A stretch of DNA of 64,000 nt from Lama guanicoe (taxonomy: Eukaryota), in NCBI GenBank assembly GCA_013239625.1, contig MU053881.1, forward strand, positions 14,624,373-14,688,372. The letters are read 5' to 3'. Positions 20,150-51,918 of this stretch are shown here, piece after piece. A program made the position numbers and the translations under genes. Position 1 is the stretch's first letter, and every line of letters begins with the position of its first letter. Under the pieces are notes generated by a model. It was given only the letters and a program-made list of their open reading frames with translations. It did not search any database and was not told the DNA's origin.

Positions 20150-21150
20150 ACGCGACCGCTACCCCCACTCCAGAGTTCCCCCACTGCGCCTGCGCACCCA
20201 GCCCCACAAAAGTGCGGAAGGGCCGGAGCAGTAGGTGCTGCTTCTGGCCCTTTAAGGCTCGGGGGAGGGGCGTGGCTTCCGCTGGGGGCATTAGAAATGC
20301 AATTGCGCCTGCGCATTCTTGTCCTAGGGGCTCCGGCGGGAGCCCAGTAGGTTCGGGGGGATGGGCGGGGCCTCAGAGAGCTCTCTGGAGTTCCCTGCGC
20401 TGGTCCTCCCTCACCTCCAATTCGGCCCACAGATTTTTTTTCAGGCAGAGCCACTCGGCTCCACCTTCGGAAACACGGGTCGGGCTTTCTCCAGTAGGAG
20501 GGCGGGAGAGAATTAGGAGGGGCGTCTGGAACTTAAAGGGGCGACACCACTGCCGCCCCTGTCCATAACAATGTGCCCTCTGCGGTCCTGGAGGCTCAGG
20601 AGCATGCGCAGGGATTTGATGGCAGCTGGAGGGGTACAAGAATGGAGTTTATACGGCCTAAAGTGGGCAATGTGTGGAGTGTTCCCCCAATTCGTCTAGC
20701 CCCCGAAAAAGGTGTTCGGTAAGAGAGGGCGCCCTTTCCCGTCCCCCTCCTGAGTGTCCCTCCTGGAACTTCAAGGGGTCGCTGTCCTCTCTTTACCCAC
20801 TTCCCAAGTGCCTCTTTCCCCAGTCTCTCACTCACGGACCCTCTTCTGTCTGGGTAGACGAAGGATCTGGGAAGGCGGGCCAATTAGCACAGGAACTGGA
20901 GAGGTGCGGAGTCCAGTTTCGCAGGGAAGATTTAGGCAGTTGTCCCCACCTCCTGACTTCCGGTCCCGGTCGTCGGAACAGGGCCGTGGCCGCGATGGAA
21001 GAACCTGAGATGCAGCTCAAGGGGAAAAAAGGTGGTGCGGGGTGCCGAGCGGGGCGGAAGGGCGACCTGACTAGGGGCAGGAAGGAGCCAAGGCACGGAG
21101 GGAGAGCGTTTAGGGGGCAGTGGTTGAGCTGCTGCGGAATCCTGGCTCGG
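20150..21150. promoter_or_regulatory. CpG island / bidirectional promoter shared by RFXANK (-) and BORCS8 (+)
   Basis: Head-to-head genes; NRF1-like TGCGCCTGCGCA at about 20185 and 20304; ETS motif ACTTCCGGT at 20956-20964 just upstream of the BORCS8 ATG. Confidence 0.8.
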
Positions 21151-24100
21151 CCGCTGACTAGTTTTGAAACCTTTAGAAAATCCCTGTGCCTCGATTTTGT
21201 CATCTGTAGAATGGGGAGTAGAATAGTCTCCCTCCTTCTCCCCACAAAATTGTTGTGAGAATTCAGTTACCTGATATTTGTAAAGCATTGGAAGAACGTT
21301 TGGGGTGTGGCAATTGCTATGTGTATTGTTTCCCTTGTATTTACGCATTTGTGTGTTTACGTTGACTTATCCAATATGACCGAGTTACAAGTTACAAAAT
21401 GCCACAAGCTATTTTTAAAGTATAAATATTTTTGTTACTGTATTATATACGTTTTTACTAGTTAATTATTCAGAAGTCACAAGTACATTTAATTGAGGCC
21501 TGCGCAGGTCCCAACCTGTTGGTGGTTTGGGGTTGCTATCTGCCTCATAAAGCAAAGTAGAGGATTTGTCTTCTGGGAAGACATAGTCGTCTTCTCCACT
21601 GATAAAACCTCTCACATAGTTGGCTTTGGCATCTTCCAGGAAGAGAAGTTTGAGATTGAGGCTTCATGTGTACGGGTTTTCAGTTGAGATAGAGGAGACA
21701 ATGGTTATAACCAGAACGTCCAGAGTGGGTTATAGTTACCTCCAGAGCTTGTCACTGTTAACCCAGCTTGGGCTTCATGACAATCATAGAAGTGGATTCC
21801 TTAATAATAATAATATAATAATAACAACAACAACAACAATAATAATAGTTATTATTATTATTATTTCCAAAAAAAAGTCACAAGTACATTTAACTCCACG
21901 TTCTCCATAATGACACTGTGAAATGTAAGCTATTAGTACTACACTCATTTTCAAAATGAGGAGGCCTAAGAGAGTAAGAGGACACAAGAGTTTGGAGGTG
22001 GCAGGCTGGGCTCTGCCCAACTCAGGGCACAGTGGTACACTGGACACATCTAAACTGGGCAGACTCATGCACAGCCTCTCTTGACTCCCAGACACATGTG
22101 GGTTCTTTCCCTCACCAACCACAATGCCCTGGGCAGTAGTGTGGGTCCATCTCTGTAGCAGACCTTGAGGTGGGTACAGTTATCATTCCGTTTTTACAGA
22201 TGAGGAAACTGAGGCTCAGCGAAGCCCCTGCCCTCACAAATGAAGTTTTAGGTAAACATGTAACCTAACAAAGAATGAGAATTTAAGTATAAGGGAAATG
22301 AACAAAGAATGAAGTTGAAGGGACATCTGATTGATTAAGCTTGGTAATTAGGGAAGACTTTACCCAGGAGGTGACATTTGAGCTGAGACATGAGGGGTGA
22401 GGAGAAACAAGGGGTTGGTGGAGGCAATGTCAGTGGTGGGAACAACAGGTACAAAGGTCCTGAGGTGGCAGAGTGTTCAGAACTGTGCCACAATACACTG
22501 GCTACTGGTCACTGTGCTTATGCATATTTATGTTAATTTAAATTAGGTAGAATTTAAAATTCGGATTCTGAGTCACATCAGTGACCCAGTGAGCACATTT
22601 CAAGTGCTCAGTAGCCATATGTGGCTACCATATTGGACAGTAAAGATTATAGAACCTTCCCATCATCTCAGAAAGTTCTTTTGGACACTGCTGAGAGTGT
22701 AAGGAACAAGCAGGAGGTCATTGTGCCTGGGGCAGAGGTGGGCAACAGCAGGCAGAACATATAGGGCCTTCTGGGCCATGTTGAGGAAAGCAGATTTAAT
22801 TCTCAGGCTGCTGGGAGTCATGGGAGTGTTTCAAGCAGAGGAGAGACATATCTAATATGTTTATTAGGAGCTCATTCCGTCTGTTTCGTGAGGATTGGAT
22901 TGTTGACAGGTGGGGAAGCAGGGAGACCAGGGAGGAGCTGAGTTTGCCATCTCAGTGGGACAGGCTACACCTAGATCAGTGGGGTCAGAGCAGTGGTAAG
23001 AATGAGTGAGTTTGGGGCTTTGTTTTGTGACTCAGCCAGCAGGATCTGCTCATTGATGGGGTAGGATGGGCAGGGACAACCAGCTAGCTGCTGTTTGTTG
23101 AAGCAGACCCTGGGATGAGGATTTGTGTGCGATTAACTTACCAAGAGAACCCCACAGAGGAGAAGGGGAGACAAGACAGGGCCAGGGAAGAGGCTAAGCA
23201 AGGAATGACCTCAGGTAAATTGCACAGAGGGAGGCCTCAGCCTGTTCCCTCAGGGGTGCTCACAGGTATGACTTGTGCCTCTGAGATGTTGCAGCACACA
23301 GGACGGGACATGGGTCTTCATACCCCTCGGTGGTTAGTCATGGCTGAGAGCCATCCATGGGTGTTAACTTTCTGTCACTTTTGGGTCCAGTAGCCAGTGG
23401 GCATCCTCTGAAGAAGAATCTTGGAATTTTGTCACTGGGGTAAAGGGAATGTGAATGGATACAAGTGGGTGGCAGCAGTGTCCTCTACAAGTGGGTTTGG
23501 GAAGGGAAAGATCATGAGTTCACTGGACAGGTTGATGTCCTCAAGATTGAGGCCCTGCTGTGACCAACTCCCACAGCGCATCACCTGGGCCACAGGTGAC
23601 CCAGCTGCGGGGAGGGACACTGGACTCTTCTCTACTCTAGCTGGACTCATGAGCAATCAGGAGTCTGATGTTTTGTCTCCTTGTCCCTCTTTTTCTCCCC
23701 CTCCCCCACCCCCCATTTTGCCAACTGTTGATCCTGGACCCAGTCACAGACAAATTCACTGAGAGCGTCTATGTCCTGGCCAACGAGCCATCCGTGGCCC
23801 TGTACCGGCTGCAGGAGCACGTGCGACGCTCTCTGCCTGAGCTGGCCCAGCATAAGGTGAGCCCTACTCCCAATGTCTCACAAGGTCTGCACCTTGTGGC
23901 CTGGGGCCTGCTGTGTGGAGCAGGGGCTGTTGGTTTAGCAGTCAAGGCTGGGACACCAGTGTCAGGGAACATGGTCACTGACCCAGGTTGGAGCTGGGTG
24001 GAAAGAGCTGGGGCAGATTTGGAAGAAGAGAACAGAAGGGTCTGCATCAGTTGTGACCTGTGTGGTGAGGAGGAGGCAGCTATATGAGGACCCAAGGGGA

Positions 24101-30060: not shown

Positions 30061-32954
30061 TATGAGGAGAGCATGGCGCCAAGAACAGCCTGGTGTCTTG
30101 TTATTCTGTGCTCATGCGGGCAAACATGGGCAGATTGGAGGTGCCTAGGGGACTTACTGAGCCCCTGGCTTGTGTAGCTTTCGGAGCCCCCTGCCCATTT
30201 GCTGTGATGGTTCTCCGTGCTGTGGAGGCCCTCTCAGAGGGTCAGGGGAAGCATGGGTGAGCACAGGGCCCCACAGCACCTAGAACAGCAGTTCCAAGAG
30301 CCAAGAGGCAGCCAAGAGGCAGCAGAATTCATGGGTGTGCAGTCAGAGAGTCTTATTGGGCCCCTGCTGTGTGCAGGGCCTAGCTCTGGGAAGAGGGGTG
30401 GCGAGGAATCCCACAGGCTGTGGGATCGCCTGGGGAACATCTGGGAGGGCCTGGAGCAAGAGGGGCTGCTAAGGGGGTCAGAAAACCCACCGCATTTCTC
30501 CACCCAGTGTTGCCCACCAGCCCTGGGCCCAGACCCCACCATCTCCCTGTTCTATACCTTGTGCCCTGGTCCCTCTCACCCTCGAGCCTCAAGGATGCTG
30601 TGCTGCTGCCCTCCCACACCTTCCACACCCAGTGTGTTCCTCCTGCTCCTGCCTGGAGCCTCCAGGCCAGCTAGAAACATGCTGGATCATCTGCTGTCCC
30701 TCCACTGCTGTGCCCCTTCAGAACGAAATGCTCTGGGGCTCCTATCCCACCTTTGTCCCTACAGACCCTGCTCTGTTGCTCCACAGAACTGCGGCCCCAC
30801 TCTCCTCTCTCAGAGCCTCCACCCCCACTTTCCCCCAACCTGTTGCCCCTGGGATTGTAGGTGACCTTCACAGGGTCAAGTCTTGGCCTTCCCTGGTTTC
30901 CCCTACCTCTCCAGGCCCAGGGCTGTACACACAGCCCCATTTTACAGAAGAGGAAACTGAGGCTCAGAAAGGCAAAGCAGGGTCACTGCCCATGACCAGA
31001 AATGCCAGGATTCACACCCAGACCCTCTAACCCCCAGTGCTTCACCTCTTCCTCTGGCCCCACCCAGGACCCTGCCTCAGCTACCACCTCATCAGGGCTA
31101 CCCTGCCACCCTGGGGAGTCTCTCAGACCTTGCCTTGACCCATCTCCTGCCCCTCAGCTCCTCCAGAGCTGGGCCTTCGTACACAGTCTTGTGGGACTTG
31201 GAGGGGACCGAAGACCAAGCAAGTGTGGCCAGCGTGTTCCTTCTGCTCCTGCCTGGGGCCTCCAGGCCAGCCGTGAATGTCCTGAGACAAGGCTTTGCTG
31301 CCCCTGGACTCTTACCTGCCCGCCCATTGATGGACACGGCCATGGCCATGGCCCCTTGGACCAATAACTGCCACCATGACAATCCTGATCACACACCTGC
31401 CATGTGCCCAGAGCTGTGCTGGGAACTTCACCAAGGCCATCTTTCATCCTCAGACAGCCCTGTAAGGCAGATGTCACCCCAAATACAGATGGGATAAGAG
31501 AGGCTCTGAGATACGGCATGATTTGTGTGAGGTCACACAACTAGAGAGAGCAGACCCCAGCCTAGTTTGGCCCCAGCACTGCCTCTGACATGCTGTGTGA
31601 TATGGGGCCTCATGCTGACCCTCTCTGGTCCTACCTTTTTCCACCTGGACAAGGAAGCCTGGACTGGACCTTCTTTACAGGCTGAGGCAGACATTTGTGT
31701 ACCTGCCTGCCTGGACTGCATTCTGTCTCAAGAAGAAATGCCCACCACAAGCTCAGGTCATATGGAGAAGCCACCCTAGCTCCAGGGGTGGCCTGGCTAA
31801 TCAGAACCCCCCATCTCCCAGGTCACAGTGATTGGTTTGAGATGGGTATGTGATCCAATGGGAGGTTTCCCCTGGAATTTTGCTGGAAAAGTGCAAAAAG
31901 TACCATCTTCCTTCTGTGGTTGTTGAGCTGGGCAGATAGAAGGGGCAGCCTGAGAACATTGCATGGGGCCCTGGATCCAGCTGTACCTGATACTAGCAAA
32001 TCCCAATTCTTCAGTTTCACGAGTCCCTAAAATTTTTTTGCCAGAATTATTTTGAGTCTGTTTCTGCTGAGTTCAGAAAAGCCCACACTGATCCCTGGGA
32101 ATTCCAAGCCTGGGAGATCATGGCCCATGGTTTGTACACGTCCAGGGCCAGCTGTGTGCCAACACAGTGCCCTGCAAAATGTATCGGGAAGGTCAGAATG
32201 GAGTCGTTGAGGGTATAGCCAGGATGGGTCCCAGGCCCACTGCTCTGGGAGGATCTCCCCCAGCTTGGCACTGTGAAGTGATTTGGAGAGAAGGGTGGCA
32301 AAGACACCAAGAGGTGTATCTAGGGGGTGTCAGGGCTGTGGAAGGACTGAGGGCCTGGCAGGGGGTTCAGGGACACAGGAGGTATTGAGAAATAACCACC
32401 TCCAACCACCAGGCAACAGGACCAGCCCTTTCTCCTAAGGTGTACTAGGAGCCTGCCACCATCCTGCCTTCCCACTGCCCCAGCTCAATTTAGGGGGAGG
32501 GAGGAGCCTCAGGTTCACCCTATTTTAGGCCCTGACTGGTGTGTGACCCCCATAGAGTCACTCCCTCTCTTTACCCTCTCTGAAGGCATCTCTCATTGTC
32601 CATCTGTCCTTCTACCATGCAGCCATTTATCCAGCAAACACTGGCCACCCTCTCTGAGCTGGGTCCTGCCTCTCCAGCGGATGTCCTGATGAGCCAGACA
32701 GGCCAACCCTGGCCCCAGGGCACAGACCCAAGGGACATAGGGGCAGCTCAGTGAGGTAACTGTCCAGGGGCGGCCCTGGACAGGTCAGGTGCTTTGAGCC
32801 TAGTGGGGGGCAGTCATGAGGTGTCCTAGACTTTTCTAGGGCTCCCTGTCACGCACAGCCCTGAACGCGACTTCAGCCCACGACTAATATATCCTCTCAA
32901 AGAGGTCTGTGGAGGACTCTAGGTTGTCAAATTCCCCACCACCCCAAGTCCTAG

Positions 32955-33490
32955 GGCTTACAGAGGTAATGGTTAATTTGCGTTTCATTTATGCCACCTT
33001 GCCCTTCGTGCCTGGCGAATGTCCTGCCCCTGCCGGCCGCCAGGGGACGCAAGAGGCAAAGCCTTGGCCCAGCACTCTGCCTCCAAACGGTCGTTGTCCG
33101 CAGTCTTGGCTGATACTGGAGGGTGGATCGTAACCCTCTGCCCTTTTTCACCTTATACGTCCTTGCTTCAGAAAGTGAACCAAGGCTCCGCGAGGCCAGA
33201 TTACCCAGCAAGACCTCGCACCAGCTCCCATACGCTGGCAGCCTTACCTCCCCAGAGTGGAGGGAGTGGGCATTCCCAGATCCTGCTCACTAAGACTCCC
33301 AGAAATAGGTAGATGGCCAGGAGAGAGGCAGGTAGCTCCCCGTGGCACAGAGCACTCAAGCAGGGAGTCTAGCACCCATAAGGGTGGGGGCCGCCTGGAA
33401 AGGATCCCTGGGTAACATGTTGGATGCCCCACCCGGGCTCCTTCACATCTGTGGATGGAGTAAAAGGAGGCCCAAGACGGCTGCGACTTG
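32955..33490 (+). other. BORCS8: Candidate BORCS8 terminal 3'UTR exon
   Basis: Acceptor CCTAG| at 32954, variant poly(A) signal AGTAAA at 33459-33464, T-rich sequence downstream. The exon-5 donor at 29093 needs a downstream exon. Placement is inferred. Confidence 0.35.

Positions 33491-48081: not shown

Positions 48082-51918
<3,837 letters not shown>

What the first reader, a model, noticed from the sequence alone, without database searches (positions are those of the whole stretch)
21474..21893. Tailed 382-bp insertion of unrecognised, coding-like sequence in BORCS8 intron 1, with a 19-bp target-site duplication
Seen: a perfect 19-bp direct repeat (AAGTCACAAGTACATTTAA, 21474-21492 and 21875-21893) brackets about 310 bp of unique sequence plus an (AAT)n(AAC)n(AAT)n..(ATT)n..A tail. 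Established: a long duplication plus an A-rich tail is the signature of L1-mediated target-primed reverse transcription. The body resembles no SINE or LINE I recognise. Antisense to the tail there is a stop-free frame over about 21663-21493: SLNLKLLFLEDAKANYVRGFISGEDDYVFPEDKSSTLLYEADSNPKPPTGWDLRRPQ, preceded by frame-broken segments (TLDVLVITIVSSISTENPYT; GIHFYDCHEAQAGLTVTSSGG). Inference, by eye only: ISGxDD...TLxxxxxSNPxPxTGxD resembles the third Ig domain of nectin-2/PVR (ISGYDDNW...ATLSCDVRSNPEPTGYDW), with TAT one substitution from a Cys codon. The alternative is a captured non-retroviral RNA-virus fragment, which would fit the antisense orientation. Candidates are an inverted or antisense retrocopy of an unknown gene, an endogenous viral element, or an undescribed camelid retroposon.
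Basis: partly seen in the sequence, partly recalled or inferred. Interest (0 to 1): 0.7.

Follow-up and report, generated by a model that had tools for sequence, protein, structure and literature searches.

The report
Retrocopy of guide RNA SCARNA27
The insertion is a pasted-in copy of SCARNA27, a small RNA predicted to guide one chemical change in the splicing RNA U4, together with about 250 bases that followed it in its transcript; this is an ordinary kind of event for a little-studied RNA, not a protein gene or a virus piece.

Summary
In detail: a perfect 19-bp duplication brackets 382 bp. The coding reading does not. On the + strand, sense to BORCS8, 21494-21619 is a box H/ACA RNA: hairpin, H box, hairpin, ACA+3 (z -4.0). 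It matches human SCARNA27 without gaps at 107 of 126 positions (counted by eye). Both boxes sit at the same offsets, and the 7+3-nt guide for U4 pseudouridine 4 is unchanged. About 250 nt of 3' flank, a 6-nt A run and the second duplication follow. This is an L1-made scaRNA retroposon of Weber type 2 or 3. The antisense 'ORF' is spurious: its 28 database relatives look like gene calls on other copies (20 of 28 end at the RNA's 5' end, 17 of 28 carry private frameshifts). No significant nectin or viral hit appeared. Rfam gave no significant hit; the snoRNA Atlas lists SCARNA27 with no Rfam family and as not conserved. Yet up to 23 further loci share this 3'-extended form. Parent locus, empty site and expression were not tested.

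The parts
20995..21031 (+). BORCS8 first coding exon (ATG to donor); sets the intron and the sense strand
   Evidence: next exon 23743-23856 hits Pfam PF10167 BORCS8, E 9e-17
21474..21492 (+). left target-site duplication, 19 bp
21493..21619 (+). SCARNA27 copy (H/ACA scaRNA); 21494-21619 is the annotated 126-nt RNA, 21493 is one further templated base
   Evidence: 107 of 126 ungapped identity to human SCARNA27, by eye; fold z -4.03; the Atlas gives an expression start 2 nt upstream of the gene start
21494..21547 (+). 5' hairpin with pseudouridylation pocket
21500..21506 (+). 7-nt guide strand, complementary to U4 nt 6-12
   Evidence: U4 5' end from primers; identical in human SCARNA27; Table 2 of PMC1636440 gives 7+3 nt, 5' hairpin
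21535..21537 (+). 3-nt guide strand, complementary to U4 nt 1-3; starts 14 nt before the H box
   Evidence: by eye
21549..21554 (+). H box (ANANNA), RNA position 56 as in human
21559..21612 (+). 3' hairpin; loop 21583-21588 opens with a CAB-like NNAG (CAB consensus UGAG); pocket largely closed in this copy
   Evidence: (z -4.09)
21614..21619 (+). ACA box plus 3 nt, RNA position 121 as in human
21620..21868 (+). 3' extension copied from the parent transcript (intron, or 20-nt intron stub ending in CAG at 21637-21639 plus a non-coding exon); contains the microsatellite 21802-21865; no AATAAA/ATTAAA left
   Evidence: 23 of 28 relatives extend 12 or more codons past 21640; unstructured controls z -0.03, -0.22; no protein family in any + frame
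21869..21874 (+). poly(A) remnant, 6 nt
21875..21893 (+). right target-site duplication
21493..21663 (-). 57-codon stop-free antisense frame; spurious

Best explanation
The insert is an L1-mediated retrocopy of the box H/ACA scaRNA SCARNA27. The template was an RNA already trimmed to the mature scaRNA 5' end but still carrying about 250 nt of downstream host transcript and a poly(A) tail. L1 ORF2p nicked BORCS8 intron 1, primed reverse transcription on that tail and left a 19-bp duplication. SHOWN: identity to SCARNA27, boxes, fold, guide complementarity to the U4 5' end, sense position in the intron, duplication, A run, and a family of copies with the same 5' end and 3' extension. INFERRED: the L1 step itself; that the extension is host intron cut at a cryptic poly(A) site (type 2, about 60%) rather than intron stub plus terminal exon (type 3, about 40%); that the copy could be trimmed out of the BORCS8 intron, bind the H/ACA proteins and act as a spare guide for U4 pseudouridine 4. 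Most likely it is a young, redundant copy, still processable but under little or no selection.
For: Human SCARNA27 (126 nt, U4-Psi4, 7+3 nt, 5' hairpin, host EEF1E1, northern blot) matches 21494-21619 at 107 of 126 with no gap (by eye). H box at 56 and ACA at 121 in both. I noted the U4-Psi4 guide from the sequence before finding the SCARNA27 entry. Of the 19 differences, by eye on the structure: 9 unpaired, 3 one-sided changes that keep a pair, 4 forming two double-sided compensatory pairs, 3 breaking a pair of that register, 0 in the 19 guide and box positions. Fold z -4.03, 1 of 200 shuffles as stable. With ACA held unpaired, 5 of 2350 ACA sites in the window pass a hairpin-H-hairpin-ACA filter; one is exactly 21493-21619. 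20 of 28 relatives reach the same 5' end (125 of 154 residues identical just inside, flanks 103 of 1092 pairwise). Where the family inference from their proteins differs from the window (8 sites), 7 carry the human base. Weber's types 2 and 3 describe this anatomy.
Against: No DNA of the parent locus or of any other copy was obtained, so the parent gene, the origin of the extension and the empty site are unseen. The human comparison was by eye. The insert failed my first, unconstrained anatomy filter (2 of 2350 other sites passed) because the minimum-energy fold pairs 2 nt of the ACA box; the filter was written after seeing the fold. Hairpin 1 alone is only z -1.60, and the reverse strand folds about as well (z -3.91). 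Rfam gave no significant hit (best 19.3 bits, E 1.5), explained by SCARNA27 having no Rfam family in the 2016 Atlas. The 19-bp boundary itself is a poor L1 nick site; it fits the recalled consensus only if the duplication is read as 21 bp with one mismatch. The U4-Psi4 role of SCARNA27 is a prediction; a 2021 review lists no guide for it.
Confidence: 0.93

Rival explanations
1. Same identity, but type 3: the CAG at 21637-21639 is a real splice acceptor and 21640-21868 is a terminal exon of a non-coding host or of an alternative EEF1E1 isoform, so the parent host may not be the annotated EEF1E1 intron.
For: A pyrimidine-rich 20-mer ending in CAG follows the ACA box directly and is kept in the family inference. 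12 of 28 relatives run to 21775 or beyond, so the 3' end looks fixed.
Against: The branch point would have to overlap the ACA box (inference). Most positions are equally well supported in the inference (122 of 148 above 0.99), so the CAG is not specially conserved. No + frame matches an EEF1E1 protein or any Pfam family.
Confidence: 0.37
2. The copy is not spare but the working, or a selected second, U4-Psi4 guide of this lineage (host-gene switch as Weber describes for U107 and ACA36).
For: Sense and intronic; boxes and both guide strands identical to human, chance about 0.046 at 15% uniform divergence; two compensatory pairs; opening pocket 1 and the hinge costs 4.5 kcal/mol.
Against: That conservation may be inherited from the parent: the perfect duplication suggests a young insertion (0.135 at 10% divergence). 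Two changes private to this copy (RNA positions 105, 110) close pocket 2; opening it costs about 7 kcal/mol. Across relatives the extension is nearly as similar as the RNA part (692 of 1072 vs 715 of 1023 residues), as expected for neutral decay. Expression was not tested.
Confidence: 0.25
3. The copies form a self-propagating SINE-like family (copies made from copies), like the platypus snoRTE (recalled), rather than independent retrocopies of one parent.
For: Up to 23 loci turned up by accident in protein calls alone; shared variants, such as a one-codon indel in hairpin 2, split them into groups.
Against: Groups may simply be host lineages with different parent alleles. No internal promoter or LINE-derived 3' end was identified; one copy in 64 kb. 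Tens of copies are normal for snoRNAs (table rows).
Confidence: 0.12
4. Antisense or inverted retrocopy of a nectin/PVR-like Ig-domain gene.
For: Motif likeness by eye; obscurin Ig at E 0.9-1; one multi-Ig protein at E 1.9e-4 from 6 summed stretches.
Against: 0 PDB and 0 Pfam hits at E up to 10; no usable Atlas hit; 17 of 28 relatives have private frameshifts at 25 positions; the opposite strand is SCARNA27.
Confidence: 0.01
5. Endogenous fragment of a non-retroviral RNA virus.
For: Duplication and A run are also seen at such elements (recalled).
Against: None of the 23 hits among 1.84 billion representatives has a viral Pfam family as a significant match; 0 of 35 candidate stretches confirmed in viral contigs; no phage or plasmid match; a host parent is identified.
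Confidence: 0.005

Closest known systems
Human SCARNA27 (PMC1636440; PMC4914119 supplement)
   Same: 126 nt, no gap, 107 identical by eye; H box at 56, ACA at 121; 7+3-nt guide for U4-Psi4 in the 5' hairpin.
   Different: Lies in BORCS8 intron 1, not EEF1E1; bracketed by a duplication and an A run; 19 substitutions; pocket 2 (human prediction 18S-227) altered and more closed; expression unknown.
sno/scaRNA retroposons, types 2 and 3 (Weber 2006, PMC1687206; Luo and Li, PMC1802619)
   Same: Mature 5' end, downstream host sequence, A-rich end, 7-19-bp duplication, sense insertion in an intron.
   Different: SCARNA27 is not named in the main text of either paper; type 2 versus 3 is unresolved here.
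U109/SCARNA18 scaRNA retroposons (Weber 2006)
   Same: Retroposed H/ACA guide for a pseudouridine at the very 5' end of a spliceosomal snRNA, with boxes and guide kept.
   Different: U109B is type 1 (no long extension) and shown to be ancient and conserved; this copy looks young and its conservation is untested.
5' snoRNA-capped, polyadenylated (SPA) RNAs (seen only in a search listing; otherwise recalled)
   Same: The inferred template has a snoRNP-protected 5' end and a polyadenylated 3' end.
   Different: Known SPAs are long and C/D-capped (recalled); this would be about 375 nt and H/ACA-capped, and is inferred only from DNA copies.

Membership tests
box H/ACA RNA | hairpin-hinge-hairpin-tail fold | tested here: met
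   failed the unconstrained filter only through 2 paired ACA bases
box H/ACA RNA | H box ANANNA in the hinge; ACA 3 nt from the 3' end | tested here: met
   21549-21554 and 21614-21616
box H/ACA RNA | bipartite guide about 14-16 nt from the box (rule recalled) | tested here: met
   hairpin 1: 7+3 nt to U4, 14 nt from the H box, by eye; the U4 of this species was not seen
box H/ACA RNA | accumulates as a mature RNA bound to dyskerin, NOP10, NHP2, GAR1 | not testable with these tools
   needs small-RNA reads or a pull-down
SCARNA27 | full-length sequence homology | tested here: met
   107 of 126, ungapped, by eye
SCARNA27 | orthologous position in EEF1E1 | tested here: not met
   it lies in BORCS8 intron 1: a paralogous copy, not the orthologue
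scaRNA | CAB box in a hairpin loop | tested here: inconclusive
   loop 2 opens with NNAG, not the full UGAG; localisation not testable
snoRT/scaRT | 5' end equals the mature RNA 5' end | tested here: met
   insert starts 1 nt before the annotated start; 20 of 28 relatives end there
snoRT/scaRT | A-rich tail and 7-19-bp duplication | tested here: met
   6-nt A run, 19-bp duplication
snoRT/scaRT | empty site in an outgroup | not tested
   no outgroup DNA was obtained
snoRT type 2 or 3 | extension derives from the parent's downstream intron, with or without spliced exons | tested here: inconclusive
   shared by 23 of 28 relatives, but the parent locus was not available
nectin/PVR Ig domain | significant profile or sequence match; kept reading frame | tested here: not met
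endogenous viral element | viral protein match and no host parent | tested here: not met
   host parent found

The most novel reading that the evidence does not exclude
SCARNA27, catalogued as non-conserved and with no Rfam family in the 2016 Atlas, is one of the more actively retroposed scaRNAs of placental mammals. Its copies come from a fixed, roughly 375-nt H/ACA-capped polyadenylated RNA that nobody has described. This BORCS8 copy is a working second or replacement guide for U4-Psi4 in its lineage, and the human EEF1E1 copy need not be the parent.
Probability: 0.2. Interest if true: 0.55.

Novelty: new member of a known kind. Interest (0 to 1): 0.3.

Why it matters
As an event it is ordinary: snoRNA retroposons have been known since 2006. 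Its value is for annotation and for one small open point. U4-Psi4 had no listed guide in a 2021 review, and SCARNA27 is marked 'conservation: NO, Rfam: NA' in the snoRNA Atlas, although the discovery paper reported dog and cow homologues. A non-human copy with an unchanged 7+3-nt guide and two compensatory pairs supports both the fold and the predicted target. The family of copies gives material for an Rfam model and points to a 3'-extended polyadenylated precursor that can be tested. It also warns that antisense frames of such copies enter protein collections as 'hypothetical proteins'.

Tried and rejected
Nectin/Ig and viral readings: PDB, Pfam, ESM Atlas (14), viral contigs (30), phages and plasmids: nothing significant. 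Five of the 23 hits (P0008, P0012, P0018, P0021, P0022) are long proteins hit through 5-8 summed weak stretches and were dropped before all counts. Five of the remaining 28 relatives were set aside by eye as probable same-locus pairs before the inference; only P0016/P0024 was confirmed (10 of 12 flank residues). Twin-priming inversion: rejected, the body is sense throughout. Rfam look-alikes SCARNA14 and SNORA18 (19.3 and 18.4 bits against cut-offs 40 and 70): shared architecture only. DNA of relatives: the one metagenome locus (L001, 1 of 83 candidates) is a bacterial false hit with no blastn match; 0 of 3 candidates in prokaryote genomes; no whole genome is held. Extension as coding exon: 0 Pfam families in three frames; PDB hits were noise (E 0.4-0.7, and a designed protein at E 8e-4 with no stretch passing alone). 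A MIR-like look of the right flank (recalled) was not confirmed by self-blast. A U2-Psi54 match of pocket 2 (recalled) rests on bases private to this copy and was dropped. Earlier findings of the scan: none.

Full report
Observation. The 19-mer is identical at 21474-21492 and 21875-21893 and encloses 382 bp. It is the longest of 11 exact repeat pairs of 15 nt or more within 7 kb in the window. The insert lies in BORCS8 intron 1: ATG at 20995, donor after 21031, next exon hitting Pfam BORCS8 at E 9e-17. The A run before the right copy is 6 nt.

The coding idea fails. The 57-aa antisense frame and its 79-aa read-through have 0 PDB and 0 Pfam hits at E up to 10 and no usable Atlas hit. A search of 1.84 billion representatives returned 23 hits; 5 long proteins hit through summed weak stretches were dropped, and a profile search added 10, giving 28 relatives. 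None has a significant Pfam family, and none of the 20 listed has a source name. One runs on into text I recognise, from memory, as a ruminant SINE (P0011). A frameshift-aware alignment to the insert shows 17 of 28 with private frameshifts at 25 positions; 20 of 28 reach the insert's left junction, with 125 of 154 residues identical just inside it and 103 of 1092 pairwise identity among 14 flanks beyond it; 23 of 28 extend past 21640. These are best read as automatic gene calls on the antisense strand of decayed copies of one element with a fixed 5' end, at up to 23 loci. No viral support appeared.

What the + strand is. 21493-21621 folds into two hairpins with a single-stranded hinge and tail, -48 kcal/mol, z -4.03; two downstream 129-nt controls give z -0.03 and -0.22. 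An H box lies at 21549-21554 and ACA at 21614-21616. In a window-wide scan the insert failed an unconstrained filter, which 2 of 2350 other ACA sites passed; with ACA held unpaired 5 of 2350 pass, one being exactly 21493-21619. The filter was post hoc. Hairpin 1 alone is weaker (z -1.60), and the reverse strand folds about as well (z -3.91). Rfam gave nothing significant.

Identification. From the pocket of hairpin 1 I noted complementarity to the U4 5' end around pseudouridine 4, 7 bp on one side and 3 on the other (recalled; note). Primers in two papers confirm the U4 5' sequence. Table 2 of PMC1636440 then lists SCARNA27: 126 nt, U4-Psi4, 7+3 nt in the 5' hairpin, host EEF1E1, dog and cow homologues, northern blot. 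Its sequence in the supplement matches 21494-21619 without gaps at 107 of 126 positions, counted by eye. The snoRNA Atlas row gives boxes at 56 and 121, as here, Rfam 'NA', conservation 'NO', targets U4-4 and 18S-227. By eye on the pocket-open structure, the 19 differences are: 9 unpaired, 3 one-sided and still pairing, 4 in two compensatory pairs (66-119, 87-98), 3 breaking a pair of that register, none in the 19 guide and box positions. The family inference from the proteins differs from the window at 8 sites, and 7 of them carry the human base, which ties the 28 relatives to SCARNA27 as well. That inference leans towards the window and leaves many third codon positions open.

Mechanism. Shown: mature 5' end at the left junction, about 250 nt of shared 3' extension, short A run, 19-bp duplication, sense position in an intron. 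Inferred: L1 reverse-transcribed a SCARNA27 precursor trimmed at its 5' end and polyadenylated downstream. Weber describes this as types 2 (intron only) and 3 (intron plus spliced exons). A pyrimidine-rich 20-mer ending in CAG follows the ACA box, but a branch point would overlap the box and no + frame codes for anything recognisable; I put type 2 at about 60%. The triplet microsatellite seems to have grown inside the RNA's 3' end, where the parent may have had its poly(A) signal; none is left here. The perfect duplication suggests a young event (0.135 at 10% divergence).

Function. Sense intronic copies with intact boxes can be processed, and this one keeps everything needed for U4-Psi4. Against selection: two private changes close pocket 2 (about 7 kcal/mol to open), and among relatives the extension is almost as similar as the RNA part (0.65 vs 0.70). 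No reads were laid, so expression, the empty site and the parent locus remain open; the run listing shows only that the DNA is present in full in four coded organisms.

Literature. Seen: PMC1687206 parts 1-3 of 8 and passages; PMC1802619 part 2 of 5 and passages; PMC1636440 passages with Table 2 and one supplement passage; PMC4914119 passages and rows of supplement file 1; PMC7960923 passages with Table 1; PMC2064619, PMC2234240 and PMC4010461 one primer passage each (66, 71, 67; the last irrelevant); PMC6984369 passages and a supplement search with no SCARNA27; bioRxiv 2024.01.08.574649 passages; PMC9896466 search listing only. 'SCARNA27' occurs in 4 papers of the library, none on retroposition by title or abstract start; BORCS8 with snoRNA gave 1 unrelated paper; two searches gave 0. 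The library lacks most subscription papers, so this does not show absence from print.

Verdict. A SCARNA27 scaRNA retroposon: new member of a known kind, confidence 0.93, interest 0.3.

Noticed in passing
P0001-P0033 (protein collections): 28 predicted 'proteins' appear to be antisense frames of SCARNA27 retrocopies in mammalian DNA; P0016 is recorded on 157 contigs from three sources.
   Followed up: partly
P0016 and P0024: Same flank beyond the RNA's 5' end (10 of 12 residues) but diverged bodies: probably one old insertion shared by two species, so SCARNA27 retroposition may be ancient.
   Followed up: partly
window 21583-21612; alignment A1: Relatives fall into groups with and without one codon in hairpin 2: different parent alleles, lineages or subfamilies.
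   Followed up: no
window 32922-33058 (-) and 49773-49904 (-): Two other stretches pass the hairpin-H-hairpin-ACA filter in both scans (-52.5 and -42.6 kcal/mol, 57-58% GC); no Rfam hit; probably chance.
   Followed up: no
window 21894-22000: Right flank looks like a MIR fragment (recalled); self-blast against the window did not confirm it.
   Followed up: partly
window 21802-21865: Compound triplet microsatellite with inverted halves; could be a polymorphic marker.
   Followed up: no
human SCARNA27 versus window 21494-21619: At 12 of the 19 differences the family inference keeps the window's base, and 8 of those 12 are C-to-T or G-to-A in human (by eye); the human copy may itself be a drifted copy, but the inference leans towards the window.
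   Followed up: no
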